This document shows, piece by piece, positions 1,500 through 5,652 of a stretch of DNA of 61,705 nucleotides. Source of the DNA: an uncultured archaeon. Its GTDB lineage: Archaea > Aenigmatarchaeota > Aenigmatarchaeia > Aenigmatarchaeales > Aenigmatarchaeaceae. The notes under the pieces were generated by a model. The model had not been told where the DNA came from and ran no database searches. It was given only the letters and a program-made list of their open reading frames with translations. Where the stretch lies: contig CAYGWD010000002.1 of the NCBI GenBank assembly GCA_964353745.1, forward strand, positions 1 through 61,705. Direction: 5' to 3'. Every line of letters starts with the position of its first letter. The stretch's first letter is position 1. A program made the position numbers and the translations under genes.

Positions 1500-1515
1500 A
1501 TAATAATGAAGTTCT

Positions 1516-1995
1516 TTGCTGGGAAAGTATTTAAATTTTAGTTTTAAAACTTCTTTTATGAGGAAAAGAGCTTTTATCTGTAGCAGTTTGCGTACTCTTG
1601 AAATAAGAGAGGAAAATGAAAAAATAGCAACTGTGACAAATGAGACTGGTTTTGATTTGTATCTACCACAGAGAGGACTTCCTTATGGTGTAGTTAAAGA
1701 CCCGAAATTAATTTTTGAAACAAATTGCAGAGAAATCGATAAATCATATTTTATGATAGTGAACACAAACGGACTTTTGTATAGCGAAGAGAAAATAAAA
1801 GGAAATTCATTAAGTAGAAACATAATAGAAGGAGCAGGAGTTGAATTTGAATGGGGATATGGAAGTGGAAAAAGAAAACCAATAGTTGTTTATTCCACAG
1901 TATCGGATGCTCCATTTCCTAGAAATTTTACTACGCATACCTTGGAGGAGCTAAGACAAAAACTGCTTGAGATAGCTGAAAAAGGATTTAAATAA
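1516..1995 (+). CDS. hypothetical protein
   Basis: Open frame; start uncertain (alternative ATG near 1558). Confidence 0.4.
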   Translation: MLGKYLNFSFKTSFMRKRAFICSSLRTLEIREENEKIATVTNETGFDLYLPQRGLPYGVVKDPKLIFETNCREIDKSYFMIVNTNGLLYSEEKIKGNSLSRNIIEGAGVEFEWGYGSGKRKPIVVYSTVSDAPFPRNFTTHTLEELRQKLLEIAEKGFK

Positions 1996-2016
1996 TATCA
2001 AAATTTAATTCTGTTT

Positions 2017-2058
2017 ATGATTTGCCTAGGTTTGGAATCAACTTATAGAAGTAAATAA
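2017..2058 (+). pseudogene. decayed 5' remnant of kae1 (MICLGLE then unrelated sequence and stop)
   Basis: ATG ATT TGC CTA GGT TTG GAA encodes the canonical Kae1 N-terminus MICLGLE. TTTGCCTAGG is shared with the functional copy at 3509-3518. Homology ends after GAA (2037). Confidence 0.6.
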
Positions 2059-2075
2059 ATTATATAAAATTCTAA

Positions 2076-3503
2076 ATGCTAATATTGTCTGAAGGTGAAA
2101 AATTGTCTGAAAAGTATATAGAATTTAAATTAACCGACTTGCCAATAAATGAGTTTTGTATTCTTTTGGAACCCGATGTGCAAAGGAAGTTAATAGAAGA
2201 ATCTGCAGTTAAAATAGCTAAAAAAACAGGAAGAGAATACGGGAAAGTCAAAGATTTAGCAAGATATCTTAAGAATAGGTGTGAAAGTCTCTCTGAGATA
2301 AAAGTAGAATCGCTATGGAACCAGTACATTAGATTATGGAAAATTAATAGAATGTTTATCCCAATTGATTGCATTATTGAATTATGTAAACTGACCAATC
2401 AGAATTCTGAAAAAATTAAAAAACATATTATTAGGCTAAAGCACATAACGGGAAGAAATCATTCTTCAATATCGTTCAATTTCCTTTATGATGAGACCAT
2501 AGCTGGTTTGGGAGAATTGATAAAGTGTGAAGGTCATCTTAAGAAAAATTTAAGACAGTTTAGCTTGGAAAATGCGAGCGTAGACCTGATAAATCACTTT
2601 AAATCACTTCTAAAAGAGTTAGGCGTGAAAAATAAATATGAGTTGTTGAAGGTTGAGACGGACATACCAAAGAAGGCTATTATTAGAAAGGTTCTAATCA
2701 AAGGTAAAGAGATCAGGTTTTATACCAGGTTCAATAAATCTGGAAAAAGAAAGGTTATGTTCCATGACAAATTCAAGTATGGAACTAGAAAGGAATATGC
2801 TATAATAACTGATAGTAATGCGATAAAAGTTGCTGTAAAGATACCATTTAGATTAAACATAACGGCAGAAAGCACTTACGGAATTTCGAGTTCGTCTATC
2901 CATATAGATGTTACAAACATCACATTATCAAAAATTTTACACTTGCTTACAAATGTTCCAAGCGGAAAAAAGTCAAAGATTATTGAGTTTTGTCCGTTAC
3001 TTGGATTATCCCCTTTAATTGTGAAAAGAGAGGCTATAAATGTTATTTTTGCTTCTGAGTGCTGGTTGGAAGGAAATAGGATTCGTATATGCTTGAATAG
3101 TTTAGATTACGTTAAGGATATTTATAGCCTGCTTAAAGGGTTTGGAATGAACCCAATTTTAAGCGATTATAATTATCTTTCAATAAATACTTGGAGAGAC
3201 CTAGAGATATTTGATAAAAATTTTAATTTAATAATTAGCGAGAAGGAATTAAAACTCAAAGAGATGATATCGAATAAGAAGAACTTTAAACATGGAGAAG
3301 GGTTATCAGAAATTCTCAATTTCATAAAAGAAAAAAAATCTGTCTCTGTGAAGGAAATATCATCGAAATTTAACAAAAGTAAAGATGATATATGGCAGCA
3401 TCTCAAGAATGGCGAAAAACAGAATCTTATAGCGAAAAATACAAACTTCTGGCCGTATAGATATTCTTTAACAGAAGGAGGTGAATCATCTCTTGAAAGA
3501 TAA
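2076..3503 (+). CDS. free-standing double-motif LAGLIDADG homing-endonuclease-like protein with C-terminal winged-helix-like region
   Basis: Motifs IAGLGELIKCEGH and FASECWLEGN (acidic residue followed by Gly at the LAGLIDADG positions); C-terminal KKSVSVKEISSKFNKSKDDIWQHLKNGEKQNLI resembles a wHTH; stop overlaps the kae1 start by 11 nt. Confidence 0.6.
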   Translation: MLILSEGEKLSEKYIEFKLTDLPINEFCILLEPDVQRKLIEESAVKIAKKTGREYGKVKDLARYLKNRCESLSEIKVESLWNQYIRLWKINRMFIPIDCIIELCKLTNQNSEKIKKHIIRLKHITGRNHSSISFNFLYDETIAGLGELIKCEGHLKKNLRQFSLENASVDLINHFKSLLKELGVKNKYELLKVETDIPKKAIIRKVLIKGKEIRFYTRFNKSGKRKVMFHDKFKYGTRKEYAIITDSNAIKVAVKIPFRLNITAESTYGISSSSIHIDVTNITLSKILHLLTNVPSGKKSKIIEFCPLLGLSPLIVKREAINVIFASECWLEGNRIRICLNSLDYVKDIYSLLKGFGMNPILSDYNYLSINTWRDLEIFDKNFNLIISEKELKLKEMISNKKNFKHGEGLSEILNFIKEKKSVSVKEISSKFNKSKDDIWQHLKNGEKQNLIAKNTNFWPYRYSLTEGGESSLER

Positions 3504-4492
3504 AACGTTTTGCCTAGGCATCGAAGGTACTGCTCTAGTTTGCCTGCAGAAATACTTTTGGTGTCGGTATTGCTGATGATAAGGGAAACATTCTAGCCAA
3601 TGAAAAATCAATGTACAAACCTCCTCTAGGGAAGGGAATAATACCTCGTGATGCCGCTGACCATCATTCTGAAAATGCAATGACGGTTCTAAGAAAAGCT
3701 TTAGAGAAAGTTAATTTAAAAATGAGCGATATTGATATAATCGCCTTCTCTCAAGGGCCTGGCTTGCCACAGTCGCTTCGCGTTACCGCGGTTTTTGCTA
3801 GAACATTGTCTTTGAAAAATAATAAACCTTTAATTCCAGTTTGTCATCCTATTGGGCATATCGAAATAGGTAAGTTAACAACAGGTGTCAAAGATCCTAT
3901 AATTGTTTATCTAAGCGGTGCTAACACCCAAATAATTGCTCATCTTGAAGGTCGATATCGAATAATAGGCGAGACAGAAAATCTTCCTTTGGGCAATGCT
4001 ATTGATATGTTAGCTAGGGAATTAAATTTACCTATGCCAGGCGGACCCGAAATCGAAAAGCTGGCATTAAGAGGAAATTACATAAATCTTCCATATACTG
4101 TTAAAGGTTGTGATTTAAGTTATTCTGGTATTTTAACAGAAGCAGTAAAGAAATATAATCAAGGCGTTAAAGCAGAAGACGTTGCCTATTCTTTTCAAGA
4201 GACTTGTTTTGCCATGCTAGCAGAAGTGACAGAGAGAGCTATTGCCCATACCGATAAGGAAGAAGTTCTACTTGTAGGTGGAGTGGCTGCCAATAAAAGA
4301 CTGCAGGAGATGCTAAGGATTATGACAGAGGAGAGAGGAGCAAAGTTTTTTGTTGTTCCTCAGGAATATGCAGGCGACAACGGTTCAATGATTGCTTGGA
4401 CAGGAATTCTCGCGTATCAGAAAGGTTATAAAACCACTATCGAGGACAGTCATATCAAACAAAAATGGAGAGTAGACGAAGTGGAATGGTAA
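3493..4492 (+). CDS. kae1: tRNA N6-adenosine threonylcarbamoyltransferase Kae1 (KEOPS), interrupted by a 16-nt putative BHB intron (exon 1 3493..3535, exon 2 3552..4492)
   Basis: Exon 1 (TTG start 9 nt after GGAGGTGA) gives KDKTFCLGIEGTA; exon 2 continues (H)TFGVGIADD. Full-length similarity to archaeal Kae1 (SQGPG, VGGVAAN, GDNGSMIAW). The two parts are in different frames unless 16 nt are removed. Confidence 0.8.
3536..3551 (+). other. putative 16-nt bulge-helix-bulge (archaeal endonuclease-type) intron in kae1
   Basis: hBHBh' fold: helix 3522-3529/3553-3560, central helix 3530-3533/3546-3549, bulges 3534-3536 and 3550-3552, inner helix 3537-3538/3544-3545. The exact junction within the bulges is not determinable from sequence. 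Confidence 0.6.
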
Positions 4493-4543
4493 TGCGCATT
4501 TTAGAGTGTGCATCTCTAATATTTCAGTGTTTCTGCTGCGAAA

Positions 4544-4564
4544 GTTCAAATCCGGTCCCCTGCA
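4544..4564 (+). repeat. tRNA 3'-end-like repeat, copy A (GTTCAAATCCGGTCCCCTGCA)
   Basis: T-loop TTCAAAT plus T-stem 3' strand plus acceptor 3' strand plus discriminator A; no matching T-stem 5' strand or tRNA body upstream. Confidence 0.6.
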
Positions 4565-4600
4565 CTAATGATGTTCTTCACAGCTGACCTGGGGACGGCA

Positions 4601-5323
4601 TTAAGTTCTTATTACAGATTCAACATCAGAAGGAGAATATTTTAGAAATTTTGCTTTCATAATACATTTCAAAGCTTCAGTTGGTCTCACATTATCTTTA
4701 AACCTAAACATCCTTTCATCAAACTCTTCCAAACTATTTGCATCATAGACTAAATTAAAAGTGTAAAGAGGTTTACCGCCAGAAAATCTCAGTTTGTCTA
4801 CAGTTTCAATATAAAGCATCGTCCATTTCCTATCCTCTTCTCTGCTTTTGCTTGAATGACCCCAAATAACACAAGGACTGCCAGCAACAGTCATGTATGT
4901 TGGACAATCTGTTTTAAAACCTTCTCTGGTTAAATGAGTTTTTTCTGGGAATGGACAATTTACTAAAAGTTCTCTTTTTCCTTCATAATTTTTAGATACC
5001 TCAATCACATCATCAAAGCTATGCTCTTCTTTACAGGACAGACATGCCTTATCAGCTTCGTCTATATTATTTTCTGGTTTTGACCTTTGCTTTCTATCTC
5101 TTAACCAATAATCAAAATCCTTTTCTTCTGTTCTATCGGTTCCATATTTTAATAATGTTTGAACATCACCATACTGAAGCATGCGAAAAACATTATTACC
5201 ATTAAAAATTCCTTGTCTTTCTAATTCATCCAAAATTCTATTTCCTATTCTTTCTATAAGAAATCTATCTACAGTAACAACTAAAGTATTATTATGTTTG
5301 TAAGATTTCATAAGATGCTCCAT
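4601..5323 (-). CDS. hypothetical protein (240 aa, several Cys/His clusters)
   Basis: Long open frame; no family recognised. Confidence 0.5.
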   Translation of the reverse strand: MEHLMKSYKHNNTLVVTVDRFLIERIGNRILDELERQGIFNGNNVFRMLQYGDVQTLLKYGTDRTEEKDFDYWLRDRKQRSKPENNIDEADKACLSCKEEHSFDDVIEVSKNYEGKRELLVNCPFPEKTHLTREGFKTDCPTYMTVAGSPCVIWGHSSKSREEDRKWTMLYIETVDKLRFSGGKPLYTFNLVYDANSLEEFDERMFRFKDNVRPTEALKCIMKAKFLKYSPSDVESVIRT

Positions 5324-5354
5324 TAGATTAAGTTATTCTAAAATCTTTAAATTT

Positions 5355-5543
5355 TTGATTAGTGATATTCTAATTATGTCATATACACAAACTTTACAAC
5401 CAATAAAAGATGAAATGGCTATATTGAAAAGGGAGAGCCCTTTTGAAGCTATGAAATATGAAATGACCATGTTAAGAAAAGAGAGTCCTTTGGAAGCTCT
5501 TAGGAAATATGTAAGACAACTTAGAAAGGAGATGGAAAGATGA
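5355..5543 (+). CDS. small hypothetical protein with internal tandem repeat
   Basis: Two ~16-aa units EMAILKRESPFEAMKY / EMTMLRKESPLEALRKY. Confidence 0.3.
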   Translation: MISDILIMSYTQTLQPIKDEMAILKRESPFEAMKYEMTMLRKESPLEALRKYVRQLRKEMER

Positions 5544-5574
5544 TGAAAGAAGAAAACCGTAGGTTGTCCTTTTT

Positions 5575-5595
5575 CTTCAAATCCGGCCCTCCGCA
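5575..5595 (+). repeat. tRNA 3'-end-like repeat, copy B (CTTCAAATCCGGCCCTCCGCA)
   Basis: Same family as copies A, C and D; preceded by an 8-bp hairpin, 5549-5556/5571-5578. Confidence 0.6.
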
Positions 5596-5652
5596 CAGCG
5601 AGTGTTCTGTTTAAACTATATTTTTATCTTATAATAACATCTTATCTTAATT

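What the first reader, a model, noticed from the sequence alone, without database searches (positions are those of the whole stretch)
2017..3535. LAGLIDADG-wHTH cassette inserted after codon 7 of kae1, leaving the old start behind and supplying a new 5' end
At 2017-2037 the sequence ATG ATT TGC CTA GGT TTG GAA encodes MICLGLE, the canonical Kae1 N-terminus. It sits behind an AT-rich promoter-like stretch, then degenerates (STYRSK, stop). The 475-aa LAGLIDADG-like ORF starts 18 nt later. Its last codons contain a perfect GGAGGTGA and overlap a second kae1 start (3493), which re-encodes ...TFCLGIE GTA and runs into the full gene. Homology between the two copies (TTTGCCTAGG.....GAA) stops exactly at 2037/3525. 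So the endonuclease gene sits between a dead and a live 5' end of an essential gene. It is transcribed from what looks like the original kae1 promoter and is translationally coupled to kae1. I do not know this as a described mode of homing-endonuclease residence: it is neither intron nor intein nor intergenic. Instead the 5' end is replaced, analogous to integrative elements that carry a substitute tRNA 3' end.
Basis: partly seen in the sequence, partly recalled or inferred. Interest (0 to 1): 0.85.

Follow-up and report, generated by a model that had tools for sequence, protein, structure and literature searches.

The report
Endonuclease gene plus mini-intron in kae1
An essential archaeal tRNA-modification gene (kae1) is interrupted here by a 16-base intron of the tRNA type, has a homing-endonuclease gene parked directly in front of it, and keeps a dead copy of its old start further upstream; this looks like a previously undescribed way for a selfish gene and a tiny intron to invade an essential gene together.

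Summary
ORF 2076-3503 is a two-motif LAGLIDADG endonuclease with a C-terminal winged helix. Positions 2017-2043 are a relic of the native kae1 start: leader and codons 1-9 are orthologous to relatives, so the break is after codon 9, not 7. A second 5' end starts at 3493 behind GGAGGTGA. It does NOT run into the gene: that frame stops at 3574-3576.

[quoted passage not shown] Removing it restores ...GIEGTAHTFGVGI... and a full-length Kae1. The same insert (12-24 nt) sits at the same codon phase in 44 kae1 loci, including 31 species-representative genomes (30 by the pattern scan plus L062), with compensatory changes.

Two LAGLIDADG families with no detectable pairwise similarity, and possibly a third, sit 14-47 nt upstream of this intron. 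A second, independent relic exists (L098).

Best reading: a free-standing endonuclease gene and an ORF-less BHB mini-intron form one cassette that replaced the 5' end of an intron-less kae1. This is an archaeal analogue of 'collaborative homing'. Splicing and DNA cleavage are inferred, not shown.

The parts
1987..1994 (+). TATA-like box (TTTAAATA) of the ancestral kae1 promoter, centred about 26 nt upstream of the relic ATG
   Evidence: Read from the sequence. The leader 1989-2016 is conserved in native alleles L001, L002, L003, L081 and L073. Function not tested.
2017..2043 (+). Relic of the native kae1 5' end: codons 1-9, MICLGLEST. It uses the TCA Ser codon typical of intron-less alleles.
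   Evidence: 91% identical, together with its leader, to native alleles. Homology ends at ACT|, 4 nt before the intron insertion site GCN C^AT. TCN occurs in 24 of 56 intron-less alleles and 0 of 41 intron-bearing alleles.
2044..2075 (+). Left junction of the cassette. Contains an out-of-homology tail (YRSK, stop at 2056-2058) and a TATA-like TTATATAAAA at 2060-2069 that may serve the endonuclease gene.
   Evidence: Identical junction in L073 and partly in L072. The promoter role is inferred only.
2076..3503 (+). Free-standing LAGLIDADG endonuclease gene, 475 aa: N-terminal helical domain, two LAGLIDADG-type motifs (E152-G153, E328), C-terminal winged helix (about aa 408-470).
   Evidence: Pfam LAGLIDADG_3, 24 bits against a cut-off of 22.5. 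Profile hit to TliVMA intein endonuclease 7qsu/7qss, E 1e-11. AF2 model pLDDT 92.5. Foldseek hits to WhiA, TliVMA intein, I-Tsp061I and I-DmoI. E152 and E328 are conserved in at least 90% of 31 family members.
3476..3483 (+). Shine-Dalgarno-like GGAGGTGA inside the last codons of the endonuclease ORF, 9 nt before the kae1 start TTG at 3493
   Evidence: Read from the sequence. A GGTGA core is kept at the equivalent place in L072-L077 and L087. Translational coupling is inferred.
3493..3535 (+). Live kae1 exon 1 (MKDKTFCLGIEGTA + first base of the His codon)
3520..3562 (+). Bulge-helix-bulge motif. Outer exon-exon helix 3520-3529 / 3553-3562. Central 4-bp helix 3530-3533 / 3546-3549. 3-nt bulges 3534-3536 and 3550-3552. 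Inner 2-bp helix 3537-3538 / 3544-3545 with loop 3539-3543.
   Evidence: This is the minimum-free-energy fold. Covariation: 98.6% of cells paired, 0 of 500 shuffles reach it, slid controls 31-43%. The central helix is CUGC/GCAG in 32 sequences and CCGC/GCGG in 9, with no mismatch.
3536..3551 (+). 16-nt BHB mini-intron (TAGTTTGCCTGCAGAA), with predicted cuts after the second nucleotide of each bulge
   Evidence: Removal gives GCT C|AT ACT = ...EGTAHTFG... and an open 327-codon frame. Homologous inserts of 12-24 nt lie at the same phase in 44 loci.
3552..4492 (+). kae1 exon 2, through the stop codon
   Evidence: The spliced product matches NCBIfam arch_KAE1 (TIGR03722) over profile positions 1-320 of 323, 467.9 bits. 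The unspliced ORF covers only 30-320.

Best explanation
The locus is a composite mobile cassette sitting in the 5' end of the essential gene kae1.

(1) kae1 is a split gene: exon 1 (3493-3535), a 16-nt bulge-helix-bulge intron (3536-3551), and exon 2 (3552-4492). After transcription, the archaeal tRNA-splicing endonuclease would cut between the 2nd and 3rd nucleotide of each 3-nt bulge. An RtcB-type ligase would then join the exons, giving an mRNA for a complete 327-aa Kae1.

(2) Directly upstream lies a free-standing, probably active, two-motif LAGLIDADG homing endonuclease gene with a winged-helix tail. Its stop codon is 32 nt before the intron, and its last codons supply the ribosome-binding site for kae1.

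(3) Endonuclease gene, new exon 1 and mini-intron travel as one tightly linked unit. In the ancestor of this genome the unit entered an intron-less kae1 allele through a double-strand break at or next to the intron insertion site. The right side was repaired by homology within kae1. That stranded the recipient's own promoter and codons 1-9 as the relic at 2017-2043.

(4) The mini-intron splits the conserved sequence that the endonuclease presumably recognises, so carrier alleles are immune. This is the logic of 'collaborative homing', here with a BHB intron instead of a group I intron.

Shown: the anatomy, the fold, the RNA covariation, frame restoration, orthology of the relic, recurrence in other lineages, and the statistical link between endonuclease and intron.
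Inferred: the splicing itself, nuclease activity and its target, and the order of events.
For: Intron:
- The minimum-free-energy fold is a strict hBHBh'.
- 41 pattern-matched sequences plus 3 pattern-independent ones carry inserts of 12, 13, 14, 16, 17, 18, 19 or 24 nt at the identical codon phase. Removal always restores E(G/S/C)TAHT(F/L/S)G.
- The in-frame lengths (12, 18, 24) all contain stop codons.
- 98.6% of pair cells are paired, 0 of 500 shuffles reach this, and slid controls give 31-43%.
- The central-helix Y/R pair was left free in the scan pattern and is Watson-Crick in 41 of 41 sequences.
- The would-be outer helix is only 5.2/10 paired in 56 intron-less alleles.
- The frame-restoring cut equals the published cleavage position, between the 2nd and 3rd bulge residues (PMC2738675).
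- The spliced protein matches arch_KAE1 end to end.

Endonuclease:
-.

Linkage:
- All 6 database homologues plus L087 sit directly upstream of kae1.
- 5 of 7 of those kae1 genes carry the intron, against 3 of 71 in the background; Fisher p = 5e-5, or 4e-4 counting independent lineages.
- A second family with no BLASTP similarity occupies the same position in 11 loci.
- A third LAGLIDADG-like ORF occupies it in L102.

Invasion:
- The relic plus leader is orthologous to native alleles and ends 4 nt before the intron insertion site.
- L098 has an independent relic, with a TATA box and MNCLGIES, ending 6-7 nt before that site, upstream of the other endonuclease family.
- Both relics use TCA, a codon seen only in intron-less alleles.
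- L081 has the same synteny with the intron but no endonuclease gene, and L001-L003 have neither. So presence is patchy among close relatives.
- Kae1 residues 1-37 share EGTA, a one-residue insertion and KPPLGKG with endonuclease-linked alleles. From residue 37 onwards it groups with native alleles, 74-81% against 44-53% identity.
Against: - There are no RNA data: splicing is predicted only.
- No nuclease assay exists, and the recognition site is unknown.
- About 26 of 41 intron-bearing loci have no endonuclease gene upstream.
- Two endonuclease-bearing loci (L075, L077) have an uninterrupted kae1 with apparently intact catalytic residues. So the intron is neither necessary nor sufficient for coexistence with the endonuclease.
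- The best structural match is WhiA, a non-cleaving LAGLIDADG+HTH regulator.
- The co-conversion signal in Kae1 residues 1-37 is short and mixed: some positions favour native alleles.
- The second-family loci were mostly found with an intron-based pattern, which is an ascertainment bias. Only L117 and L118 are pattern-independent.
- Distant members of that family sit next to another gene.
- EndA and RtcB were not looked for in this genome.
Confidence: 0.68

Rival explanations
1. One reading: the endonuclease cassette replaced the 5' end and the new start at 3493 reads straight into an intact kae1. No intron is involved.
For: Dead and live 5' ends, the SD-like sequence and the LAGLIDADG fold are all real.
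Against: The 3493 frame stops at 3574-3576 and the body of kae1 is in another frame. A conserved, covarying 12-24-nt insert occupies this spot in 44 loci.
Confidence: 0.03
2. The mini-intron and the endonuclease genes are independent residents. The intron would be an old, mostly vertically inherited feature of DPANN kae1. The LAGLIDADG genes would be free-standing elements that home to the region upstream of kae1, or to its very start, for reasons unrelated to the intron.
For: Most intron-bearing loci lack the endonuclease gene. Two endonuclease loci lack the intron. The intron is spread over several phylum-level lineages.
Against: The intron is 5/7 next to the window-type endonuclease against 3/71 in the background. 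Two or three unrelated endonuclease families end 14-47 nt from the same intron. Both relics break off 4-7 nt from the intron insertion site, not at the start codon. Both relics come from intron-less-type alleles.
Confidence: 0.17
3. The LAGLIDADG-wHTH protein is a domesticated, non-cleaving DNA- or RNA-binding factor (WhiA-like regulator or maturase-like helper). It would be co-expressed with kae1 to regulate it or to help process its mini-intron.
For: The top Foldseek hit is WhiA, with the same LAGLIDADG + C-terminal HTH layout. The operon-like arrangement and overlap with the kae1 start are conserved. LAGLIDADG maturases are known for group I introns (general knowledge).
Against: Both motif acidic residues and a Lys are conserved across members 21-87% identical to the window ORF, unlike WhiA. 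Presence is patchy among close relatives, relics exist, and unrelated families replace one another at the same site. BHB splicing needs no maturase (established knowledge of EndA).
Confidence: 0.1
4. kae1 here is a frameshifted pseudogene or an assembly error, or it is decoded by programmed ribosomal frameshifting or bypassing rather than by RNA splicing.
For: Unspliced, the gene is interrupted. No transcript data are available.
Against: The insert recurs in 44 independent assemblies with covariation. Its lengths fall in all three frame classes, and the in-frame ones carry stops, which no single frameshift rule explains. Exon 2 is intact and matches the Kae1 equivalog model. The geometry is exactly two 3-nt bulges around a 4-bp helix.
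Confidence: 0.02

Closest known systems
Archaeal BHB intron in the cbf5 pre-mRNA of Crenarchaeota (Watanabe 2002; Yokobori 2009, PMC2738675)
   Same: A short ORF-less intron inside a protein-coding gene for an RNA-modification enzyme. It sits at a codon for a conserved active-site region, is flanked by a BHB-like structure, has predicted cuts between the 2nd and 3rd bulge residues, and shows lineage-specific presence and absence.
   Different: - A different gene (kae1) and different lineages (DPANN, a Baldrarchaeota MAG, others).
- Much shorter: 12-24 nt, while the only cbf5 intron sizes quoted in the passages read were 36 nt.
- The window's motif is a strict hBHBh', whereas most predicted cbf5 structures are described as unconventional BHB.
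- It is physically linked to homing-endonuclease genes, which has not been found for cbf5. The authors explicitly noted that no ORF-containing version was known.
- The accessible literature lists cbf5 as the only coding-region case (PMC7714728).
[quoted passage not shown] 2009 psbA/F-CphI; Bonocora & Shub 2009; summarised in PMC3984707)
   Same: The endonuclease gene lies outside, but right next to, an intron-containing gene. The intron has no ORF. The intron insertion site lies in a highly conserved coding sequence. Linkage allows co-conversion of both.
   Different: - The intron is a protein-spliced BHB intron, not a self-splicing group I ribozyme.
- The endonuclease is LAGLIDADG, whereas F-CphI is described as an Endo VII-motif enzyme (PMC6083498).
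- The host is a cellular archaeal chromosome, not a phage.
- The endonuclease gene is upstream of the start codon, so invasion replaces the gene's 5' end and can leave a relic.
- That the target is the insertion site is not shown here.
Archaeal rRNA/tRNA BHB introns encoding LAGLIDADG endonucleases (I-DmoI, I-Tsp061I, I-PorI)
   Same: The same endonuclease superfamily and fold (Foldseek hits to 2dch and 2vs8), and the same splicing chemistry is expected.
   Different: There the ORF is inside the intron and the host gene is an RNA gene. Here the ORF is outside a minimal intron and the host gene encodes a protein. This ORF also has an extra N-terminal domain and a C-terminal winged helix.
Integrative elements that restore the 3' end of a tRNA gene
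   Same: The outcome is alike: the incoming DNA carries a substitute end of the target gene, and the displaced end remains as a relic.
   Different: No integrase or att-type recombination is involved. The mechanism is inferred to be break repair. The 5' end of a protein gene is replaced rather than the 3' end of a tRNA gene.

Membership tests
Archaeal bulge-helix-bulge (BHB) intron | Two 3-nt bulges on opposite strands separated by a 4-bp helix (definition in PMC5829648) | tested here: met
   The MFE fold of 3520-3565 shows bulges 3534-3536 and 3550-3552 around the helix CUGC/GCAG. The helix is 100% paired in 37 distinct sequences, with a U-A to C-G exchange.
Archaeal bulge-helix-bulge (BHB) intron | Flanking helices h and h' that position the bulges | tested here: met
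   A 10-bp exon-exon helix is paired in at least 38 of 41 sequences at every position. Intron-less alleles give only 5.2/10. The inner helix is 2 bp in the window and 0-1 bp in the 12-14-nt variants, i.e. relaxed bulge-helix-loop forms.
Archaeal bulge-helix-bulge (BHB) intron | Cleavage between the 2nd and 3rd bulge nucleotides, followed by ligation, yields a functional product | tested here: met
   In silico only. This cut, and no neighbouring one, restores the conserved His codon and a full-length Kae1 in all loci. The cleavage position is taken from PMC2738675.
Archaeal bulge-helix-bulge (BHB) intron | Actual excision by EndA and exon ligation in vivo or in vitro | not testable with these tools
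   No transcript data. EndA and RtcB genes were not searched for in this genome.
LAGLIDADG homing endonuclease | One or two LAGLIDADG helices ending in a catalytic acidic residue | tested here: met
   LGELIKCEG (E152-G153) and VIFASEC (E328). Both acidic residues are at least 90% conserved in 31 sequences, and K299 is invariant.
LAGLIDADG homing endonuclease | The LAGLIDADG fold and profile-level homology | tested here: met
   Pfam PF14528, 24.0 bits against a cut-off of 22.5. PDB profile hit 7qsu/7qss, E 1e-11. AF2 pLDDT 92.5 and Foldseek hits to I-Tsp061I (TM 0.64) and I-DmoI.
LAGLIDADG homing endonuclease | Site-specific double-strand cleavage of an allele lacking the element | not testable with these tools
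   Indirect evidence only: the relics end 4-7 nt from the intron insertion site and derive from intron-less-type alleles.
Intron- or intein-encoded endonuclease (classical residence) | The ORF lies inside a self-splicing intron, a BHB intron or an intein | tested here: not met
   The ORF lies upstream of the kae1 start, outside the 16-nt intron. There is no in-frame fusion with Kae1 in the window and no group I/II model hit. It is therefore free-standing.
Collaborative homing system | A free-standing endonuclease gene adjacent to a gene that carries an ORF-less intron | tested here: met
   The stop of the ORF is 32 nt before the intron. The same arrangement is seen in 17 further loci with two or three endonuclease families.
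Collaborative homing system | The endonuclease target is the intron insertion site of intron-less alleles, and the intron confers immunity | not testable with these tools
   Inferred. The counter-examples L075 and L077 (endonuclease gene present, no intron) show that immunity can also be achieved in another way, or that the inference is incomplete.
Collaborative homing system | The intron is a self-splicing group I intron, as in the described phage cases | tested here: not met
   The intron is 16 nt with a BHB structure, and there is no Rfam group I hit. Hence a variant, not a member in the strict sense.
KEOPS Kae1 (host gene) | A full-length match to the curated Kae1 equivalog model | tested here: met
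   The spliced product scores 467.9 bits against TIGR03722 (cut-off 375), covering profile positions 1-320 of 323.

The most novel reading that the evidence does not exclude
Free-standing LAGLIDADG endonucleases and 12-24-nt BHB mini-introns form a cooperative mobile cassette. It invades an essential protein-coding gene by replacing its 5' end and spreads between archaeal phyla. This would be the first archaeal, protein-spliced counterpart of collaborative homing. It would also offer a concrete route by which BHB introns enter and persist in protein genes, or by which endonuclease genes end up inside BHB introns.
Probability: 0.5. Interest if true: 0.88.

Novelty: new variant of a known kind. 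Interest (0 to 1): 0.8.

Why it matters
1. Coding-region BHB introns in archaea have so far been documented for one gene, cbf5. kae1 would be a second case, far more widespread: at least 31 species-level genomes, mostly DPANN (Aenigmatarchaeota, Woesearchaeota, Nanoarchaeia, Iainarchaeum) plus a Baldrarchaeota MAG and some 'Methanosarcinales' bins. At 12-24 nt it is close to the physical minimum for such an intron.

2. It links such mini-introns to homing endonucleases. The cbf5 authors named this as the missing evidence for how these introns arise.

3. It extends collaborative homing from phage group I introns to cellular archaeal genes with a different splicing chemistry.

4. There is a practical consequence. 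Gene callers truncate or split kae1 in these genomes, for example 252-283-aa calls in L072, L076 and L117. This affects completeness estimates and inferences about loss of t6A synthesis in reduced archaea.

5. The endonucleases target a nearly universal, highly conserved motif, so they could be useful as specific nucleases.

Tried and rejected
- Tested whether the 1.5-kb segment is itself an intron. There is no Rfam family hit at gathering or at E <= 1. The relic offers no CUGC-type partner for a long-range BHB (by eye). Rejected.
- My first two collection scans used a 6-nt loop by mistake; the window has 5 nt. They missed the window's own length class but exposed the 17-nt class. This was corrected with a length-tolerant pattern.
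- The search for related loci with the 31-sequence alignment failed because no stretch was conserved enough. The 13-sequence alignment gave one locus, L087.
- The first AF2 model, from 7 sequences, was poor (pLDDT 66) and was not used. The 31-sequence model replaced it.
- A generic BHB-plus-open-frame scan of the rest of the window gave 9 candidates against 4 in reversed-sequence controls. By design it also could not recover the kae1 case. It is uninformative.
- Tested kae1 for a mosaic (co-conversion tract). The result is suggestive for residues 1-37 but mixed, so it is not used as a main argument.
- BLASTP between the two endonuclease families shows no similarity. One protein (P0041) matches both searches, hinting at a shared module. 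Not pursued.
- The viral contig scan found nothing.
- The tRNA-like 21-mer at 4544-4564 has no second copy in the window and no match in the fetched loci.
Full report
**1. Checking the observation**

- ATG ATT TGC CTA GGT TTG GAA at 2017-2037, followed by STYRSK and a stop at 2056-2058.
- A 475-codon ORF at 2076-3503.
- GGAGGTGA at 3476-3483.
- A TTG at 3493 that re-encodes KDKTFCLGIEGTA.

The direct repeat 2021-2037 / 3509-3525 is real. As bare DNA, though, it is no better than many chance repeats in this AT-rich stretch.

One central statement is wrong. The 3493 frame does not continue into kae1. It ends at TGA 3574-3576, and the body of the gene (NTFGVGIADD... to 4492) lies in the +1 frame.

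**2. The upstream copy is the ancestral start**

The window comes from a DPANN archaeon near Aenigmatarchaeota. In its closest relatives (L001-L003, L081, L083, L086) kae1 begins ...AAATAAATAAT..TTAATTCTGTTT ATG ATT TGY YTR GGT ... GAR TCA/AGT ACN GCN CAT ACN TTT GG, which translates to MICLG(I/L)ESTAHTFG.

Window 1989-2043 aligns to this at 91% (blastn E 2e-15), including the TATA-like leader. Homology runs through TCA ACT (codon 9, position 2043) and then stops. So the break is after codon 9, not codon 7.

**3. The ORF is a LAGLIDADG endonuclease with a winged helix**

- Pfam LAGLIDADG_3 scores just above its cut-off.
- A profile of 31 family members hits the endonuclease domain of the TliVMA intein (7qsu/7qss, E 1e-11).
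- An AlphaFold model built on that alignment is confident (pLDDT 92.5, pTM 0.87).
- The model matches WhiA, the TliVMA intein, I-Tsp061I (TM 0.64) and I-DmoI. Its C-terminus matches winged-helix proteins.
- Both motifs keep their acidic residue (E152, E328; at least 90% conserved) and K299 is invariant.
- The family has 36 cluster representatives at E <= 1e-30.

**4. The missing piece is a 16-nt bulge-helix-bulge intron**

Positions 3520-3562 fold, as the minimum-free-energy structure, into:
- a 10-bp exon-exon helix;
- a 3-nt bulge (AAA);
- a 4-bp helix (CUGC/GCAG);
- a 3-nt bulge (UCU) on the other strand;
- a 2-bp helix capped by a 5-nt loop.

This is the definition of the archaeal BHB splicing motif. 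Cutting between the 2nd and 3rd bulge nucleotide is the published position. It removes 3536-3551 and joins GCT C|AT ACT. That restores the conserved His and gives a 327-aa protein. The protein matches the curated archaeal Kae1 model over positions 1-320 of 323. The unspliced ORF covers only 30-320.

**5. The intron is conserved, variable in length and covarying**

- All six database homologues of the ORF lie directly upstream of kae1. Four of them carry the same 16-nt insert.
- Collection scans then found the insert at the same codon phase in 30 species-representative genomes and 8 metagenome contigs.
- Three further cases were found without the pattern: L062, L117 and L118.
- Observed lengths are 12, 13, 14, 16, 17, 18, 19 and 24 nt. 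Removal always restores E(G/S/C)TAHT(F/L/S)G. The in-frame lengths contain stop codons. This excludes sequencing error, pseudogenisation and any single frameshift rule.
- On 37 distinct sequences, 98.6% of pair cells are paired. None of 500 shuffles reaches this, and slid controls give 31-43%.
- The central-helix Y/R pair was left free in the pattern. It is CUGC/GCAG in 32 sequences and CCGC/GCGG in 9, with no mismatch or wobble.
- Intron-less alleles have only 5.2 of 10 pairs in the would-be outer helix.
- Nothing was found on viral contigs.

**6. Endonuclease genes and the intron go together**

- Next to window-type endonuclease genes, which were found by protein homology only, 5 of 7 kae1 genes carry the intron. 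The homology-based background is 3 of 71. Fisher p = 5e-5, or 4e-4 counting independent lineages.
- A second LAGLIDADG family has no BLASTP similarity to the first. It occupies the same position in 11 loci, including a Baldrarchaeota MAG.
- L102 has a third LAGLIDADG-like ORF there.
- The ORFs end 14-47 nt before the intron.
- Distant members of the second family (31-33% identity) sit next to a radical-SAM gene instead. This is expected if specificity diversifies within a homing-endonuclease family.
- About 26 intron-bearing loci have no endonuclease gene. L075 and L077 have the endonuclease gene but no intron.

**7. The relics show how the cassette arrived**

- The window's relic ends at ACT|, 4 nt before the intron insertion site GCN C^AT. 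L073 shares the same junction.
- L098 carries the other endonuclease family in another lineage. It has an independent relic: a TATA box, then ATG AAT TGT TTG GGT ATA GAA TCA, then junk. This relic ends 6-7 nt before the insertion site.
- Both relics use TCA for the Ser codon. TCN is found in 24 of 56 intron-less alleles and in none of 41 intron-bearing alleles, which need NGT for the outer helix.
- So the recipients were intron-less alleles, broken at or next to the insertion site.
- L081 has the window's synteny (methyltransferase, then kae1) with the intron but no endonuclease gene.
- Kae1 residues 1-37 share several derived characters with endonuclease-linked alleles. The rest groups with native alleles. 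This suggests a short co-conversion tract but does not prove one.

**8. Mechanism proposed**

A free-standing LAGLIDADG gene, a substitute kae1 exon 1 and a BHB mini-intron form one unit.

- The endonuclease is inferred to cut intron-less kae1 within the conserved GIE(S/G)TAHTFG coding sequence.
- Repair copies the unit from a donor. Homology is available only on the 3' side.
- The 5' side is therefore joined illegitimately, and the recipient's promoter and first codons can remain as a relic.
- The intron splits the presumed target and makes the carrier immune.
- kae1 function is kept because the host tRNA-splicing machinery removes the intron.
- The cassette supplies an SD-like site for kae1 and possibly its own TATA box (2060-2069).

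Whether transcription starts at the old promoter (TATA at 1987-1994) is untested.

**9. Comparison with known systems**

- The accessible literature lists cbf5 of Crenarchaeota as the only coding-region BHB intron, plus a 5'-UTR case in Haloferax.
- No paper combining Kae1 with archaeal introns or LAGLIDADG was found.
- Collaborative homing has been described for phage group I introns with free-standing endonucleases.
- This system works like collaborative homing. It fails strict membership on intron type, and its target specificity is untested.
- It is therefore best called a new variant of known kinds.

**10. Limits**

- No RNA or enzymatic data are available.
- The sequence pattern introduces ascertainment bias for the second endonuclease family.
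- The rest of the genome was not examined for EndA, RtcB or a second kae1.
- The WhiA-like architecture leaves room for a domesticated, non-cleaving role.

Noticed in passing
window 1506-1988 (ORF 1516-1995, 159 aa): This ORF has a weak hit to nucleoside 2-deoxyribosyltransferase (20.5 bits, below the cut-off). It is absent from the otherwise syntenic L073 and L081, where the methyltransferase gene abuts the kae1 leader. It therefore looks like a separate insertion, flanked by AAATAATA-type sequence.
   Followed up: partly
window 4494-5630 (ORF 4601-5323, minus strand, 240 aa): This segment, directly after the kae1 stop, is absent in L081, where homology resumes at window 5631. The ORF has no significant Pfam match. 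It may be a further insertion, or part of a larger imported block.
   Followed up: partly
window 4544-4564: GTTCAAATCCGGTCCCCTGCA resembles the T-loop-to-acceptor 3' end of a tRNA and lies at the start of the extra segment. ARAGORN and Rfam find no tRNA there. There is no second copy in the window and no match in the fetched loci. It could be an attachment-site remnant.
   Followed up: partly
L104 (Ca. Iainarchaeum MAG), reverse-oriented coordinates 3923-5197: The reading frame of the second-family endonuclease stays open right into kae1 exon 1, with no stop before the intron. After splicing, an endonuclease-Kae1 fusion protein would be possible.
   Followed up: no
L119 (Thaumarchaeota MAG) and L120: Distant members of the second endonuclease family (31-33% identity) lie tail-to-tail with a radical-SAM / Zn-ribbon HMPTM gene instead of kae1. 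This may be another target gene for this endonuclease family.
   Followed up: no
protein P0041 (561 aa): It matches the N-terminal 130 residues of the window-type profile and is also 47% identical to the second-family endonuclease over 90% of that query. This suggests that the two families share or exchange a module.
   Followed up: no
L076 and L117, downstream of kae1: In these endonuclease-bearing loci kae1 is followed by a PRC-barrel gene, a LigT / 2H-phosphoesterase (2'-5' RNA ligase family) gene and a Toprim gene. An RNA-end-processing enzyme next to a spliced gene may be a coincidence.
   Followed up: no
L072, L074, L076, L117 (public gene calls): Automatic gene calls for kae1 in intron-bearing loci start downstream of the intron (193-283 aa instead of about 325). 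The gene is therefore systematically truncated in annotations of these genomes.
   Followed up: partly
window 1-61705: No tRNA gene and no Rfam family at gathering threshold in 61.7 kb.
   Followed up: no
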